From a virus, in IMG/VR virus record IMGVR_UViG_3300027712_000018: a DNA stretch of 64,000 nucleotides. One strand, written 5' to 3'. Positions 1-33,400 of the stretch are shown one piece after another. The notes below the pieces were generated by a model. That model was not told where the DNA came from. It ran no database searches and worked only from the letters and a program-made list of their open reading frames with translations. The position numbers were made by a program, and so were the translations under genes. How positions within the stretch are numbered: position 1 is the first letter of the stretch; every line of letters begins with the position of its first letter.

Positions 1-1192
1 TTGCGTGAGAGAATTGAAGTCTATCAATCAGTTTCACGGCGTTCTTACCTATGTGATCAATAGCAACAAAGCCTTCTTGTTCGGTCACCTTGTAACCGTC
101 CGCAGTTCGAAGGAAGGTTCCAATCTGTTTAGCTTTATCTAGCTTCCGTACAATGATAAGTTTCGCATCAACGATAAGGTTGTACATATCAAACATAGCC
201 ACGATTTGGGCCTTATCAGTGTTAGCGAAATACTTCATTGCTTCTTTTGCTTTGGTTTCTGCCTTAGACTTACCCGCATCAGTTTTAAGTTTGTCAACTT
301 CTTTTCTATAATAACCAGTGAGATTAGTGACAAGATCGTCAACAAATTTATGAGCATCGCCAATTCTTTGTCCTTCTCTTACTTTACTATTGATGAATAC
401 GTTTACACGGTTTAACAAGTCTTCGTTGTGGGAGATACCGTCTATCGTAGCTCTGTGTAGTCCAGAGAAGATCTTACCAGCTTTGGATAGGATTTCAGTT
501 ACCTGTGCCGTCTCAACTTCAGTCATGGTTGCTGAACCAGTGACATCACGATAGACAGCATCTACCGACCAGACGTTTCTTGACTTGGGGAACTTGCTTG
601 CAATCTCCTCTCCAAAAGTCGCTGACATTGTTTCAAAAGATTCTCCTCTGTATGTAGTGTGCCAGACCACACCGATTCGGGAGGCAAGGATCTGTTTAGC
701 AAGTCCGCTGTTCTTTGGTATCGCATAAACAATCGTATTAGGATGGAAAGTAATATACTGTTCTCCATCAATTGTAACTTCTTTGATATCCTCTTTAGCA
801 TATAAAAAATCACCCTGTACAACGCCCGTGATACCAAGTTCAGGTAGGTAGTCAAGAGCCAATTTCAATTTCACAGATAGATCACCTGAAGTGTCGGCGT
901 CAACATCTGCATGTGTCTTATACACCTTGGGGTCTTTGTTAAAGATGCCCTTCTTGGCGACAAAGAACTTGCCGTCAGTGGGGTCAGTACCCGCAAAGAT
1001 GGCAGGAGCGCCATCCCATTTGACGGTCACGTTCACTTTGTTTGTGGCCTTACCAGCCAACATATCACGAAGAGCTCGAAGGAAGTTAATGGCATCACGT
1101 GCGCCTTCGACTCCACCCAACAGGATAGAATCCTCAATGTGGGTCATATGAGTGTTCTTAGCTTCTTCTAGATACGTTGTGAATTTTTTCAT
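1..1192 (-). CDS. Ligase/nucleotidyltransferase-motif protein (DUF6267-like), partial; runs off the left edge
   Basis: Missing from the ORF track, apparently because no stop lies in the window. Hand translation of parts of the frame from ATG 1192 (ATGA overlap with upstream stop) gives MKKFTTYLEEAKNTHMTHIED...TVKWDGAPA...VQGDFLY...EQEGFVAID...AVKLIDRLQFSHA, i.e. KxDG, xGD, EGxV and K motifs. Confidence 0.8.
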   Translation of the reverse strand, partial: MKKFTTYLEEAKNTHMTHIEDSILLGGVEGARDAINFLRALRDMLAGKATNKVNVTVKWDGAPAIFAGTDPTDGKFFVAKKGIFNKDPKVYKTHADVDADTSGDLSVKLKLALDYLPELGITGVVQGDFLYAKEDIKEVTIDGEQYITFHPNTIVYAIPKNSGLAKQILASRIGVVWHTTYRGESFETMSATFGEEIASKFPKSRNVWSVDAVYRDVTGSATMTEVETAQVTEILSKAGKIFSGLHRATIDGISHNEDLLNRVNVFINSKVREGQRIGDAHKFVDDLVTNLTGYYRKEVDKLKTDAGKSKAETKAKEAMKYFANTDKAQIVAMFDMYNLIVDAKLIIVRKLDKAKQIGTFLRTADGYKVTEQEGFVAIDHIGKNAVKLIDRLQFSHA

Positions 1193-1929
1193 TCGAATGG
1201 GTTCTTTTTGTTGGTTCCAGATTTCACTGAGTATGTGCTATCAGGCATAGATTTGATTTTGATTTCTGCTTGAACTTCGTAAAATTGTGATCTAGTGGAA
1301 ACTCTAACTTTAAAGTCACCATTTCCTTTTAGTATTGGAATATTACTAGGCAATTTTAGGGGGTTCTTACTAGATATCATATAGAAATCGTTGTTAGCTT
1401 GCATATAATATGCGGGCTCTTTTTTACCCATAGTATAGTGTTTTGTTACCAACTCGCCGATTGGGTAATTCTCTCTGTTATGTATATACCTATTGACACC
1501 AGATTGACTAAAGTATGATTTCATAATGTGCAGTGGAACCGCACCTGATTCTTTCAGTCCTGATATGGTGGTTGGAATCTTTATGACATCTTCAGGTATG
1601 CCCGAAAACTTGGAAATGGCAGTGATGAACTTTGCAGCATCTGGCGAATCGTTCAACATTTTTACAGCTTCTTGAGCAGCGGGTGTTTCGTATGTCGTCT
1701 GCCATTTTTTATCTTTGTAAAACACTCTAGGGTTTGCTAGGTTATCGGTATGATTCATTTTCACTTCAACCCAAACCCTATTCGTAAGTTTGCTGTTATT
1801 GTGTTCGACTATTGCTACATCCGATAATTGAGTAGCAGCAGGAGGTCTCTCCGCTTTCATGCCAGAAATTAGATTGATAGAATCCATAATGGCCTTTTCA
1901 AATTTATCTGAAGCTACACTCATATTCAT
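1189..1929 (-). CDS. Hypothetical protein with PD-(D/E)xK nuclease-like motif
   Basis: 246-aa ORF with SDVAI...VWVEVKM; AT-rich; directly downstream of a late promoter. Confidence 0.55.
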   Translation of the reverse strand: MNMSVASDKFEKAIMDSINLISGMKAERPPAATQLSDVAIVEHNNSKLTNRVWVEVKMNHTDNLANPRVFYKDKKWQTTYETPAAQEAVKMLNDSPDAAKFITAISKFSGIPEDVIKIPTTISGLKESGAVPLHIMKSYFSQSGVNRYIHNRENYPIGELVTKHYTMGKKEPAYYMQANNDFYMISSKNPLKLPSNIPILKGNGDFKVRVSTRSQFYEVQAEIKIKSMPDSTYSVKSGTNKKNPFE

Positions 1930-1947
1930 TTCCTTTATCTATTATAG

Positions 1948-1955
1948 TATTTATA
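1948..1955 (-). promoter_or_regulatory. T4-type late promoter TATAAATA
   Basis: Exact gp55 consensus about 20 nt upstream of the 246-aa ORF. Confidence 0.8.
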
Positions 1956-31330: not shown

Positions 31331-32133
31331 TATGCAGGGTAATCCTTTATTTGAGTAATATAAGCCCAATCATCATCAAAATTAATATTGGTATATGCCA
31401 CAGTTTGATTTATATTTTGAGTCGGAGTATTGTTAGATGTAAGTCCCGGTTGAACTGTGACGTATTCCGCAACCGTATTTGATGTAATATCCGAATACAA
31501 ATTCGCTTTCACAAACTTGATCACTTTCTTCTGAGTCACGGGGCCAAAGAAATAACCCTTCATCGTGAAGGTGAGTGTCCAGATCAGAGCTCTTCTCTGT
31601 TCAAAGTTGCCTTCGTATGAATCTTCAAACGTCACACTGTCGAGGACGATAGGAATGTCTAAATGGATATCTATGTCGTCTATTAACTTCACCGTAGGAG
31701 TGAAGTCTGGTTTGAAATAGGGTAGAATCTGTTCGATAATCTTAGTTCCGTCTTCTTTAAACTTCGTCATAATGTTTAATTGGAATGTCAGATTGTATGG
31801 CGCAGGCGTATATTGTGAATTAAATGAACCATCATTTGTGCTGATTGCCTTGGAATGTCTGCCCATAGGTGTCAGATTACGTTCAGCGTCATATGACATA
31901 CCCGTCAGTTCAAAAGACATACGAGGAAGAGTGATCTGAGGTGCAGTCAAACTAGGATCTTGTTCTAGACGAGCAAGAAACTTCTGCATTGGTCCGTAGT
32001 TCAGAGGCACGGTCATCGTTTGGATGGTCGATCCAGAGTTGTCTTTACGGATGATCTGAATGTCATTAAACAACGTACCGAATACGGCCGTGTATCTGCG
32101 GGTGGTTTCGTTATAAAAACTTGTGCCGAACAT
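31330..32133 (-). CDS. 15: Tail sheath stabiliser/terminator (gp15)
   Basis: FGTLFNDI, LPRMSFE and EQILPYFKP. Confidence 0.94.
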   Translation of the reverse strand: MFGTSFYNETTRRYTAVFGTLFNDIQIIRKDNSGSTIQTMTVPLNYGPMQKFLARLEQDPSLTAPQITLPRMSFELTGMSYDAERNLTPMGRHSKAISTNDGSFNSQYTPAPYNLTFQLNIMTKFKEDGTKIIEQILPYFKPDFTPTVKLIDDIDIHLDIPIVLDSVTFEDSYEGNFEQRRALIWTLTFTMKGYFFGPVTQKKVIKFVKANLYSDITSNTVAEYVTVQPGLTSNNTPTQNINQTVAYTNINFDDDWAYITQIKDYPA

Positions 32134-32792
32134 TAGTAATTATCCTCTCCGAATGGGTTGGTTTCGGTGAAGTCTAGGATACCATCAGCAGCAGTTTCGA
32201 TAGTGAAGTTGTCAGCGATAGAGTCGAACGATTCGACATTGGCGATAGCTTCAGATGATGTAAGAACGTATTTGGTAAGAAGAGTATCAATCTCTTCTAC
32301 ACCAGTGTTGAAACGTTCTTGCGAGTATTCGAAGAGTTCGCAACGTAGATCGTAGGTCTGTAACTTACCCATTTGATAGAAGATGGCTTCGTGTTCGACA
32401 AACTTGACTTCAAAGATCTTGCGATTAAGTGGGAAGTATATTAAGTCACCTTCGTTAGGTCTAACTTCTAAGTCATATAGACCGACATCTTCTGCAAACT
32501 TTCTCATAGCGATAGTCAGCGTCATGGTGTCATTGATCTGCAGACCAAACTTAGATAGGAAATCACCATCACCACCAAAGGCATCAACATTCTTGATGTA
32601 AGCTTCGATCATATATGCCGACTTGAATGTAGATAGATCGTCTTCGTTTAACAGTTCATCTTTCGATACTATTGTTCTTGGAATATACCACACATCAAAA
32701 CCGTATATACGAATTGATTCTATGATAAGATCCTCAATAAGGTTCTGTTCCATAGAGTTTGAAAACGTATTAAAATAGAAATTGGTTGCCAT
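32133..32792 (-). CDS. 14: Neck protein (gp14)
   Basis: EQNLIEDLIIESI, SKFGL and RPNEGDLIYFP. Confidence 0.93.
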   Translation of the reverse strand: MATNFYFNTFSNSMEQNLIEDLIIESIRIYGFDVWYIPRTIVSKDELLNEDDLSTFKSAYMIEAYIKNVDAFGGDGDFLSKFGLQINDTMTLTIAMRKFAEDVGLYDLEVRPNEGDLIYFPLNRKIFEVKFVEHEAIFYQMGKLQTYDLRCELFEYSQERFNTGVEEIDTLLTKYVLTSSEAIANVESFDSIADNFTIETAADGILDFTETNPFGEDNY

Positions 32793-33400
32793 TAAACTTT
32801 CCTAACCGACCCATCTGGTTGCACGTGATAGGCCTCAAAACTAATATCGGGATATTGCTTTTCTAATGATTTGAACATTGTGATGTTGGATATCGCATCA
32901 TCAAAGAATCTCACTCGAGCATACTTACCACCACGAAGATACTTATGGAACAAGAATCTCTTATTTTTTGCACTAGAATTCTTGTCTCCTAGATTGCCAG
33001 CACGTTCGACATATACATTACTAATGTCCATACCGTGATCTTTGAATGTTTTTAAGAATGTTTCTTTGTCGTCAAAATCAGCTCTGGCAGTCATGATGAT
33101 TACCTTAGAACCAGCCTTATTAGCGTTTGCAATGATGGCATTCGCTTTGGCGATCATCTTGGTAATCGGTTTAGAGGTCTTTCTGAAATTCTCTGCATTC
33201 TTAAATTGGCCAAAGTCGAATGTCTCACCGTCTTTAAGTTTGTATGTGTTAAACTCTTGGTTGGTCAATTCGCCGACTTCTTTACCGTCCTTCATGATTT
33301 TAATCATGGCGAACGTATGAAACAGAGTATCATCAATATCAAATACCGTTAATCCGATTCCCTCTTTGGATTCTATGATAAACGATCTAAATGACTTCAC
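32792..33400 (-). CDS. HAD-superfamily phosphatase with N-terminal capsid-targeting-like peptide
   Basis: FDIDDTL (DxDxT), MTAR, K and FFDD motifs; starts MKSFRSFIIES; inserted between gp13 and gp14. Confidence 0.8.
   Translation of the reverse strand: MKSFRSFIIESKEGIGLTVFDIDDTLFHTFAMIKIMKDGKEVGELTNQEFNTYKLKDGETFDFGQFKNAENFRKTSKPITKMIAKANAIIANANKAGSKVIIMTARADFDDKETFLKTFKDHGMDISNVYVERAGNLGDKNSSAKNKRFLFHKYLRGGKYARVRFFDDAISNITMFKSLEKQYPDISFEAYHVQPDGSVRKV

What the first reader, a model, noticed from the sequence alone, without database searches (positions are those of the whole stretch)
1..33400. Candidate virion-delivered nucleic-acid repair pair: ligase-motif protein (1-1192) and HAD phosphatase (32792-33400), both with capsid-targeting-like N-termini
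Seen: the left-edge ORF (absent from the ORF track) starts MKKFTTYLEE-A and has KWDG, QGD, EGFV and K motifs in the order of motifs I, III, IV and V. The HAD protein starts MKSFRSFIIE-S and has DIDDT...TAR...FFDD. Both lie downstream of TATAAATA late promoters, and the HAD gene is inserted between neck genes 13 and 14. Established: T4 internal proteins are packaged via an MKTYQEFIAE-type targeting sequence cleaved after Glu by gp21. KxDG marks the ATP-dependent ligase/capping superfamily. T4 Pnkp (DxDxT phosphatase) plus Rnl1 heal and seal tRNAs cut by the anticodon nuclease PrrC. Inference: this phage may pre-package a healing and a sealing enzyme and inject them with the DNA, countering RNA-cutting defences before phage genes are expressed.
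Basis: partly seen in the sequence, partly recalled or inferred. Interest (0 to 1): 0.8.

Follow-up and report, generated by a model that had tools for sequence, protein, structure and literature searches.

The report
Head-tagged ligase-like and phosphatase enzymes
An uncultured marine T4-like phage puts the ten-residue tag that phage T4 uses to load proteins into its head onto two late enzymes, a new kind of ligase-fold protein and a phosphatase shaped like the end-healing domain of T4 polynucleotide kinase. They are therefore probably injected with the DNA as ready-made nucleic-acid end-repair enzymes, but no packaging, activity or substrate has been measured.

Summary

Both proteins start with M-x-x-F-x-x-[FY]-[LI]-x-E. 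This leader is conserved in both unrelated families and lies outside both folds. Its fixed positions are those shown in T4 to drive capsid targeting (4, 7) and gp21 cleavage (8, 10).

The same pattern finds ipII and ipIII in T4. In cyanophages S-CREM2, S-SM1 and S-SCSM1 it marks enzymes that published virion proteomes detected. Leaderless DUF6267 orthologues in those phages were not detected.

The two genes are adjacent in 27 of 80 related HAD loci, but only in one sublineage.

Packaging is well supported but indirect. A joint heal-and-seal role is plausible. The specific anti-PrrC tRNA-repair reading has no support: no kinase lies in the window and the substrate is unknown.

This scan has already reported leader-tagged DUF6267 on other DNA many times. 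No searched paper describes it.

The parts
2..1192 (-). DUF6267 gene: leader-tagged ligase-fold (covalent nucleotidyltransferase-like) protein. 397 aa are in the window; about 12 C-terminal residues are cut off by the window edge.
1163..1192 (-). Ten-codon leader MKKFTTYLEE (F4, Y7, L8, E10), with the predicted gp21 cut after E10.
   Evidence: It lies outside the Pfam domain, which starts at residue 13. Residues 1-9 have pLDDT below 50. The motif is present in 107 of 120 close homologues and 39 of 150 representatives at 50% clustering.
1010..1021 (-). Motif I, KWDG (K58 is the predicted nucleotidyl-accepting lysine).
32..76 (-). Motif IV (EGFV, 65-76) and motif V lysine (K387, 32-34).
   Evidence: Strands 374-379 and 385-388 in the model.
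1189..1929 (-). 246-aa ORF, first gene of the late operon and translationally coupled to DUF6267 (ATGA overlap). PD-(D/E)xK / HinP1I-like nuclease fold is a lead only. It has no leader.
   Evidence: No Pfam or PHROG hit.
1948..1955 (-). TATAAATA late-promoter-like box, 18 nt upstream of ORF 1189-1929.
32792..33400 (-). Leader-tagged HAD phosphatase, 202 aa, Pnkp-phosphatase-like core with a roughly 50-residue insert (residues 27-78).
33371..33400 (-). Ten-codon leader (V/M)KSFRSFIIE (F4, F7, I8, E10), with the predicted gp21 cut after E10.
   Evidence: The strict motif is present in 115 of 120 close homologues and 62 of 80 IMG/VR loci; most of the 12 exceptions shown have L at position 4. Residues 1-5 have pLDDT below 50 and the HAD core starts at residue 16.
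34169..34176 (-). TATAAATA late-promoter-like box, 20 nt upstream of gp13. HAD is the second gene of this operon.
33405..34148 (-). gp13-like neck protein (head-tail adaptor).
   Evidence: phrog_211, E 8e-42.
32133..32792 (-). gp14-like neck protein.
   Evidence: Pfam T4_neck-protein, E 1.8e-34; phrog_460, E 3e-80.
22779..23441 (-). gp21-type prohead protease, the predicted leader-removing enzyme.
   Evidence: phrog_207, E 6.4e-80.
21739..22728 (-). gp22-type scaffolding core protein, the predicted docking partner of the leader.
   Evidence: phrog_237, E 5.7e-83.
23693..25006 (-). 437-aa charged protein with a relaxed leader, MKTLKDIIKE-A, between the portal and the protease. It is the third candidate head-internal protein.

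Best explanation
The window comes from an uncultured marine T4-like myophage of Kyanoviridae type. Two late genes encode enzymes made with a ten-residue T4-type capsid targeting sequence.

Inferred mechanism:
1. The leader (aromatic residues at positions 4 and 7) docks the proteins onto the gp22 scaffold core during prohead assembly.
2. The gp21-type protease cuts after Glu10 (L/I-x-E).
3. The mature enzymes stay in the head with the DNA and enter the cell at injection.

One cargo protein is DUF6267, a divergent covalent nucleotidyltransferase of the ligase superfamily. It has an NTase core with motifs I, III, IIIa, IV and V, a roughly 130-residue helical insert, and no OB or C-terminal domain. 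The other is a stand-alone HAD phosphatase whose core is closest to the polynucleotide 3'-phosphatase domains of T4 Pnkp and bacterial Pnkp1.

The most likely joint job is end healing (3'-phosphate removal) followed by sealing of broken nucleic acid at the very start of infection. Whether the target is DNA or RNA is undetermined.

Shown here: the folds, the conserved catalytic motifs, leader conservation and detachability, presence of protease and scaffold genes, promoter boxes, and gene adjacency in relatives. Inferred: packaging, cleavage, injection, enzymatic activities and cooperation.
For: Leader:
- Its conserved positions (4, 7, 8, 10) are those mapped for targeting and processing in T4 IPIII; gp21 cuts after L/I-x-E (PMC9026906).
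- It is conserved in two unrelated families while the residues between vary.
- It is absent from a subset of DUF6267 proteins that start directly at the HxxHxED core.
- It is disordered and lies outside both folds.
- Only these two ORFs in the window match the strict pattern.
- The equivalent DNA pattern finds only ipII, ipIII and gp61.1 in T4, with no hit in the reversed control.

Experimental proxy from published virion proteomes:
- S-CREM2: ORF6 SAM lyase, ORF14 kinase, ORF154 cytidylyltransferase and ORF136 carry the strict leader, ORF13 a relaxed one (L at position 4). All five were detected. Leaderless DUF6267-like ORF87 was not (PMC10665884).
- S-SM1: T4-GC190 starts MKKFSAFLNE and was detected with 25 counts. 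Leaderless T4-GC71 (DUF6267) was not flagged (PMC3037559).
- S-SCSM1: NMNAT starts MKSFLQFLKE and is a virion protein. Leaderless DUF6267 is not annotated as one.

Machinery: gp21, gp22, gp23 and portal genes are in the window.

Enzymes:
- DUF6267 matches RNA ligases best and its motifs are conserved.
- The HAD's best matches are two RNA-repair Pnkp phosphatase domains, and it hits phrog_415.

Linkage:
- HAD and DUF6267 are neighbours in 27 of 80 HAD loci. In 17 of these, HAD directly precedes DUF6267 with a 2-4 nt gap.
- A P-loop kinase (AAA_33) precedes DUF6267 in one called protein, P0244.

No canonical ligase (PF01068, PF01653, PF09414) is present in three related complete genomes, with T4 as positive control.
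Against: - No virion proteome covers either protein or any leader-bearing DUF6267. The only DUF6267 orthologues covered by virion proteomes are leaderless and were not detected.
- The residue-level match of K58 to a catalytic lysine was not checked by superposition.
- Pnkp alignments cover 134 of 202 HAD residues. The insert at residues 27-78 sits where HAD caps sit, and capped HADs usually act on small molecules. Foldseek ranks AphA-type nucleotidases first.
- Seen from the DUF6267 side, only 5 of 80 loci have the HAD next door. The region is a cluster of assorted leader-tagged genes, so adjacency may reflect shared cargo status rather than a shared pathway.
- In this phage the two genes lie 32 kb apart.
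Confidence: 0.55

Rival explanations
1. Both proteins are head-packaged cargo but work independently. DUF6267 acts with its usual neighbours (NMNAT/cytidylyltransferase-like and other leader-tagged proteins) in nick sealing or nucleotide/NAD-linked chemistry. The HAD is a nucleotidase that reshapes nucleotide pools on entry. Under this reading the pairing is only co-membership in the cargo set.
For: - DUF6267 is fused to CTP_transf_like domains in several proteins, and C48C1 and S-SM1 have a cytidylyltransferase beside it.
- Only 5 of 80 DUF6267 loci have the HAD adjacent, and upstream neighbours vary.
- The HAD gene sits at several different genome positions.
- Foldseek ranks AphA and e(P4) nucleotidases first for the HAD.
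- The cap-position insert is not matched by Pnkp.
Against: - HAD directly precedes DUF6267 with a 2-4 nt gap in 17 loci.
- A kinase directly precedes DUF6267 in one called protein, P0244.
Confidence: 0.25
2. The N-terminal peptide is not a packaging signal in this phage. Both are ordinary cytoplasmic late enzymes, and DUF6267 is simply the DNA ligase that this phage group otherwise lacks, sealing nicks during late replication, recombination or packaging.
For: - No PF01068, PF01653 or PF09414 ligase is present in S-SM1, S-CREM2 or C48C1, while T4 scores as expected.
- DUF6267 (T4-GC71) is present in all 16 cyanomyophages tabulated and sits beside replication genes (gp41, UvsX, gp43).
- Leaderless orthologues exist and were not detected in virions.
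Against: - The leader is strongly conserved at exactly the T4 targeting and processing positions in two unrelated families.
- Five of five leader-bearing gene products in S-CREM2 (four strict, one relaxed), and the leader-bearing NMNAT-like proteins of S-SM1 and S-SCSM1, are in virion proteomes.
- Both genes follow late-promoter boxes, and the HAD sits inside the neck operon.
Confidence: 0.12
3. One reading: a pre-packaged T4 Pnkp/Rnl1-like tRNA repair kit, injected to undo anticodon-nuclease (PrrC-type) cleavage before any phage gene is expressed.
For: - The HAD's best fold matches are the phosphatase domains of two RNA-repair enzymes, T4 Pnkp and Pnkp1 of the Pnkp1-Rnl-Hen1 complex.
- DUF6267 scores slightly higher against RNA ligases than DNA ligases.
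- A kinase directly precedes DUF6267 in one called protein elsewhere.
Against: - No 5'-kinase was found in the window. The only Walker A motifs are in three larger proteins, including a Walker-A protein read as helicase by synteny (3364-4794) and two others not annotated here.
- DUF6267 ends 22 residues after motif V, so it has no Rnl1-type C-terminal tRNA-binding domain.
- The Z gap between RNA and DNA ligases is under 2 units.
- No anticodon nuclease is known here for the unknown marine host.
- T4's own repair enzymes carry no CTS by the pattern scan.
Confidence: 0.08

Closest known systems
Phage T4 internal proteins IPII and IPIII (and IPI) with their capsid targeting sequence MKTYQEFIAE, removed by the gp21 prohead protease
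   Same: A ten-residue N-terminal leader with an aromatic residue at positions 4 and 7, I/L at 8 and E at 10. Late expression. gp21 and gp22 homologues are encoded. The leader is detachable from unrelated mature domains.
   Different: The cargo here is two enzymes of 20-45 kDa rather than small basic proteins or inhibitors. Position 4 is Phe rather than Tyr. Packaging and cleavage are unmeasured for these proteins.
T4 Pnkp (PseT) 3'-phosphatase domain (PDB 5uj0, 1ltq) and Pnkp1 of the bacterial Pnkp1-Rnl-Hen1 RNA repair complex (4xrp)
   Different: It is stand-alone with no kinase domain and carries a roughly 50-residue insert after motif I. It falls below the Pfam HAD_PNKP cut-off (16.7 against 27.6 bits). 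It is leader-tagged and late, whereas T4 Pnkp is not a virion protein.
ATP-dependent RNA ligases: Naegleria NgrRnl (Rnl5, 5cot), T. brucei REL1 (1xdn), T4 Rnl2 (2hvq), fungal Trl1 ligase domain (6n0t), T4 Rnl1 (9do4)
   Same: The nucleotidyltransferase fold and the ordered motifs KxDG ... EG ... K.
   Different: No sequence-level match. A roughly 130-residue helical bundle is inserted between the core and motifs IV/V. There is no N- or C-terminal accessory domain of the Rnl1, Rnl2 or Rnl5 types. It has an extra conserved N-terminal HxxHxED element.
Class B acid phosphatase AphA and class C e(P4) nucleotidases
T4 Alt ADP-ribosyltransferase, and the NMNAT-like proteins seen in cyanophage virion proteomes
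   Same: These are precedents for enzymes carried in a T4-type head and delivered at infection. The NMNAT-like proteins of S-SM1, S-CREM2 and S-SCSM1 carry the same leader.
   Different: Different enzyme classes. The authors of those proteome papers, as far as searched, did not link detection to a leader.

Membership tests
T4-type CTS-bearing head cargo (internal proteins) | N-terminal leader of about 10 residues with targeting residues at positions 4 and 7 | tested here: met
   F4/Y7 in DUF6267 and F4/F7 in the HAD. These are conserved in homologues. The positions are as defined in PMC9026906.
T4-type CTS-bearing head cargo (internal proteins) | gp21 processing site L/I-x-E ending at residue 10 | tested here: met
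   L8-E9-E10 and I8-I9-E10. E10 is invariant in the HAD alignment.
T4-type CTS-bearing head cargo (internal proteins) | gp21-type protease and gp22 scaffold core encoded by the same phage | tested here: met
   phrog_207, E 6e-80; phrog_237, E 6e-83.
T4-type CTS-bearing head cargo (internal proteins) | Protein present in virions with the leader removed | not testable with these tools
   Indirect only. Leader-bearing enzymes were detected in S-CREM2, S-SM1 and S-SCSM1 virions. There are no data for these two proteins.
Covalent nucleotidyltransferase (ATP-dependent ligase / capping) superfamily | Motif I KxDG with a conserved lysine | tested here: met
   K58, D60 and G61 are at least 90% conserved in 119 sequences.
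Covalent nucleotidyltransferase (ATP-dependent ligase / capping) superfamily | Motifs III, IIIa, IV and V in order on the NTase beta-core | tested here: met
   Q126-G127-D128, F149/N152/Y156, E373-G374 and K387 are conserved and lie on strands of the model. The assignment to motif numbers is inferred, not superposed.
Covalent nucleotidyltransferase (ATP-dependent ligase / capping) superfamily | NTase fold | tested here: met
Covalent nucleotidyltransferase (ATP-dependent ligase / capping) superfamily | Lysyl-AMP formation and strand joining | not testable with these tools
   Needs biochemistry.
Rnl1 family (T4 RnlA, tRNA repair ligase) | C-terminal tRNA-specificity domain after motif V | tested here: not met
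   Homologues end at residue 409, 22 residues after K387. The extra domain is a helical insert at 225-352, before motif IV.
Rnl2 family (Pfam RNA_ligase PF09414) | Sequence match to the family profile | tested here: not met
   No Pfam hit other than DUF6267. hhalign of alignment A1 against T4 Rnl2 gave probability 0.1.
Pnkp-type polynucleotide 3'-phosphatase (Pfam HAD_PNKP PF25109) | DxDxT, S/T, K and DD catalytic motifs | tested here: met
   D21, D23, T25, T104, K145/K147, D167 and D168 are invariant.
Pnkp-type polynucleotide 3'-phosphatase (Pfam HAD_PNKP PF25109) | Score above the curated family cut-off | tested here: not met
   16.7 bits against a cut-off of 27.6. phrog_415 'polynucleotide kinase' matches at E 5.8e-9.
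Pnkp-type polynucleotide 3'-phosphatase (Pfam HAD_PNKP PF25109) | Fold closest to Pnkp phosphatase domains | tested here: met
Pnkp-type polynucleotide 3'-phosphatase (Pfam HAD_PNKP PF25109) | Fused or adjacent 5'-kinase domain | tested here: not met
   The protein is a stand-alone 202 aa. No kinase was identified in the window; the only Walker A motifs lie in three larger proteins. The rest of the genome was not available.
Class B acid phosphatase (Pfam PF03767) | Score above the curated cut-off | tested here: not met

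The most novel reading that the evidence does not exclude
A widespread group of marine T4-like phages loads a two-enzyme end-repair kit into the capsid through the T4 capsid-targeting leader. 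The kit is a Pnkp-like 3'-phosphatase plus a previously unrecognised ligase family (DUF6267). It is injected with the genome, so that breaks made by host defence nucleases in phage DNA or host RNA are healed and sealed before any phage gene is expressed.
Probability: 0.25. Interest if true: 0.85.

Novelty: new variant of a known kind. Interest (0 to 1): 0.65.

Why it matters
- **A simple sequence rule for head cargo.** CTS-mediated loading of head cargo has been worked out in T4 for small internal proteins. Here the same tag, with the same critical positions, sits on full-size enzymes in abundant marine phages. It would explain why NMNAT-like and other enzymes keep turning up in cyanophage virion proteomes, and would give M-x-x-F-x-x-[FY]-[LI]-x-E at a late gene start as a predictor of injected phage proteins.
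- **A candidate ligase for Kyanoviridae.** DUF6267 has thousands of members and no paper in the library searched. It would become a new ligase-superfamily branch, and the only ligase candidate in Kyanoviridae genomes that lack gp30-, LigA- or Rnl2-type ligases.
- **A new timing for counter-defence.** If the phosphatase and ligase work together on injected or host nucleic acid, this would be counter-defence delivered as protein at time zero.

Tried and rejected
- Megablast of two 8-kb pieces against phage records found no close relative; the best was 2% coverage.
- No whole genome is held for the window.
- phmmer of both proteins against PDB sequences gave only chance-level hits.
- NCBIfam gave nothing useful.
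- Foldseek of the DUF6267 model gave nothing at E <= 0.001, although DNA ligases had the highest probabilities among weak rows.
- hhalign of the DUF6267 alignment against single T4 Rnl2 gave no match, so K58's equivalence to the catalytic lysine rests on motif context and fold, not on a residue alignment.
- I first suspected Sullivan's virion protein T4-GC15 was DUF6267. Coordinates show DUF6267 is T4-GC71, which has no proteomic flag.
- Single-linkage clustering of genes upstream of DUF6267 suggested 26 HAD neighbours. Inspection showed this was a chaining artefact, and only 4-5 are HADs.
- The S-CREM2 pattern hit at 132446 is internal to a longer ORF, not a gene start.
- S-SCSM1 ORF30 carries the leader but is not annotated as a virion protein. 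It is 106 aa and lies between two virion proteins.

Full report
**What the window is**

All long ORFs lie on the minus strand. They form a T4-type late and replication gene order:
- tail-fibre and baseplate-size genes
- gp13, then the HAD gene, then gp14
- a run of ORFs read by T4 gene order as gp15, terminase, sheath and tube (not searched against families here)
- portal gp20
- small core proteins
- gp21 protease, gp22 scaffold and gp23 capsid protein
- UvsY, with further replication-type ORFs (UvsW, polymerase, UvsX and gp41 by synteny) downstream
- at the left edge, a 246-aa ORF followed by the DUF6267 gene

No close relative exists among 50,697 phage records at DNA level. The nearest is the Kyanoviridae record Phage C48C1, at 54% protein identity for DUF6267. 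No whole genome is held.

**Observation**

Both ORFs and all quoted motifs are present at the stated places.
- The left-edge ORF is cut by the window end. Homologues are 409 aa.
- The HAD gene starts with GTG four bases after the gp13 stop, and its stop overlaps the gp14 start.
- The promoter statement is true per operon. TATAAATA lies 18 nt before the 246-aa ORF that is translationally coupled to DUF6267, and 20 nt before gp13.
- The box is enriched (11 against 3.3 expected) and 10 of 11 copies are on the coding strand.

**The ligase-like protein**

- It is a full-length Pfam DUF6267 (E 2e-109) and phrog_455, both of unknown function. No paper in the searched library mentions DUF6267.
- The family is large: 2,534 cluster representatives at E <= 0.001.
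- In 119 sequences of 35-92% identity, these positions are invariant or at least 90% conserved: K58, D60, G61, Q126, G127, D128, N152, Y156, G174, H178, E373, G374, K387, D390 and R391.
- The AlphaFold model is confident (pLDDT 93.5, pTM 0.89). It shows a beta-rich core (53-211), a helical bundle (225-352), then the two strands carrying EGFV and K387.
- Foldseek found nothing significant.
- It is not a sequence-level member of Rnl1 or Rnl2, and it lacks their accessory domains.
- Fused or adjacent partners elsewhere are a P-loop AAA_33/Zeta-type kinase and, more often, CTP_transf_like (NMNAT-like) domains.
- Three related complete genomes (S-SM1, S-CREM2, C48C1) have no PF01068, PF01653 or PF09414 ligase, while T4 scores as expected.

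**The phosphatase**

- All four HAD motifs are invariant.
- Sequence profiles are ambiguous and sub-threshold: Acid_phosphat_B at 24.2 bits and HAD_PNKP at 16.7 bits. phrog_415 'polynucleotide kinase' matches at E 6e-9.
- The model has pLDDT 80. Foldseek ranks AphA-type nucleotidases first.
- The core is therefore Pnkp-like.
- Residues 27-78 form an insert after motif I that these alignments do not cover. From general knowledge of the HAD superfamily, inserts at that position act as caps and favour small substrates. This keeps a nucleotidase role open.

**The leader**

- Close homologues of both families start M-x-x-F-x-x-[FY]-[LI]-x-E, with variable residues between.
- The strict motif is present in 107 of 120 DUF6267 and 115 of 120 HAD close homologues. 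It is also in 62 of 80 HAD genes in IMG/VR contigs; most of the exceptions shown carry L at position 4.
- It is present in 39 of 150 DUF6267 representatives at 50% clustering. Another subset starts directly at the HxxHxED core.
- So the peptide is a module added to some family members. It is predicted disordered and lies outside both folds.
- The review of Black's work states three things. The first ten IPIII residues suffice for head incorporation. Residues 4 and 7 carry targeting and residues 8 and 10 carry processing. gp21 cuts after L/I-x-E (PMC9026906). These are exactly the conserved positions here.
- In the window, only these two ORFs match the strict pattern among 1240 candidate starts.
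- A relaxed pattern adds one more true gene start: the 437-aa charged protein between the portal and the protease (MKTLKDIIKE).
- As a control, the DNA form of the pattern finds three sites in T4, namely ipII, ipIII and the small ORF 61.1. The reversed control finds none.

**Does the leader predict packaging in this phage group?**

Published virion proteomes allow an indirect test.

| Phage (source) | Leader-bearing proteins | Leaderless DUF6267 |
|---|---|---|
| S-CREM2 (PMC10665884, Table 3; 52 proteins detected, 221 features in the record) | ORF6 S-AdoMet lyase (MKDFDSFLEE), ORF14 kinase (VKRFDAFLTE), ORF136 (MQTFSMFFSE), ORF154 cytidylyltransferase (MKNFSSFLTE) and the relaxed ORF13 (MKDLHSFLTE): all detected | ORF87: not detected |
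| S-SM1 (PMC3037559) | T4-GC190 'cytidylyltransferase' (MKKFSAFLNE): detected with 25 peptide counts | T4-GC71: no proteomic flag |
| S-SCSM1 (PMC9602691) | NMNAT (MKSFLQFLKE): a virion protein | ORF257: not annotated as a virion protein |

- Four of four strict-leader gene starts detected in S-CREM2 would have a chance probability of about 0.003, from 0.235 to the fourth power (my arithmetic).
- One leader-bearing small ORF in S-SCSM1 is not annotated as a virion protein.
- The authors of the S-SCSM1 paper note that NMNAT-like proteins recur in virion proteomes. In the passages I searched, neither they nor the S-CREM2 authors link this to a leader.
- This supports the leader as a packaging mark in Kyanoviridae. 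It does not directly show packaging of the two proteins in this window.

**Are the two a pair?**

- Among 80 IMG/VR loci found with the HAD profile, 11 have the gp13-HAD-gp14 arrangement seen here. In 27 the HAD lies next to DUF6267. In 17 of those, HAD directly precedes DUF6267 with a 2-4 nt gap.
- In those relatives the HAD occupies the slot that the 246-aa ORF occupies in this window.
- Among 80 loci found with DUF6267, only 5 have the HAD adjacent and 5 have the 246-aa ORF. The commonest upstream neighbour is a 440-468-aa protein that is itself often leader-tagged.
- The linkage is therefore real but limited to one sublineage. It is also confounded by the clustering of cargo genes.

**Verdict**

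- Observation: confirmed.
- Leader-mediated head packaging and gp21 trimming: well supported by sequence logic and by proxy proteomes. I put it at about 0.8.
- Ligase-superfamily fold for DUF6267: about 0.85.
- Pnkp-like phosphatase core: about 0.75.
- A cooperative heal-and-seal function: plausible, with 0.55 for the whole best explanation.
- The specific tRNA-repair, anti-PrrC reading: unsupported, about 0.08.

This scan has already described leader-tagged DUF6267 on many other DNAs.
- the Pnkp-domain fold match of the HAD
- the HAD-DUF6267 adjacency statistics from both sides
- the T4 control of the leader pattern
- the three-phage comparison of leader presence against virion detection

Noticed in passing
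window 23693-25006 (-): A 437-aa, highly charged protein starts MKTLKDIIKE-A, a relaxed leader with aliphatic residues at positions 4 and 7. It sits between the portal and the gp68-like and gp21 genes, and is a candidate major internal or core protein. Only unknown-function PHROG hits were found.
   Followed up: partly
window 1189-1929 (-): A 246-aa ORF is the first gene after the late-promoter box and overlaps the DUF6267 start (ATGA). It has no Pfam or PHROG hit. The Atlas nearest named clusters are HinP1I restriction endonuclease and Hjc (PD-(D/E)xK), and a D...EVK motif is present. It has no leader. Homologues sit upstream of DUF6267 in 5 of 80 loci.
   Followed up: partly
L091 (T4 NC_000866, 18966-19130): T4 gp61.1, a 54-aa hypothetical protein, starts MKTFKEFIKE. 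It is the only T4 match to the leader pattern besides ipII and ipIII. I did not check whether it is a known head protein.
   Followed up: no
L084-L088 (S-CREM2 OR473000): Virion-detected 'non-structural' proteins all carry the leader: S-AdoMet lyase ORF6, kinase ORF14, cytidylyltransferase ORF154, ORF136 and ORF13. The 'Cas9-like' ORF12 has xxFxxFMxE at residues 17-25, which suggests a mis-called start.
   Followed up: yes
L030 2973-5832: A 137-kb IMG/VR contig has three consecutive leader-type genes. The first is a 336-aa His/Lys-rich protein (MLRFKSFMHLDEE), followed by the HAD (MQSFKQFITE) and DUF6267 (MLSFKQYLEE). A tail-fibre-like gene comes next.
   Followed up: partly
P0022, P0105, P0132, P0150 and similar database entries: Some public gene calls start DUF6267 at the internal Met16 (394 aa) and the HAD at Met32 (171 aa), which deletes the leader. 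Database N-termini therefore undercount the motif.
   Followed up: partly
L001 (C48C1), L082 (S-SM1), L084 (S-CREM2) records: No PF01068, PF01653 or PF09414 ligase is present in these Kyanoviridae genomes. DUF6267 is their only ligase-superfamily candidate.
   Followed up: yes
L001 5254-5625 and 7028-7300 (C48C1): Two small proteins near DUF6267, of 123 aa and 90 aa, also start with the leader (MLSFKQFVSE, MITFKKYLEE). The cytidylyltransferase between them does not.
   Followed up: no
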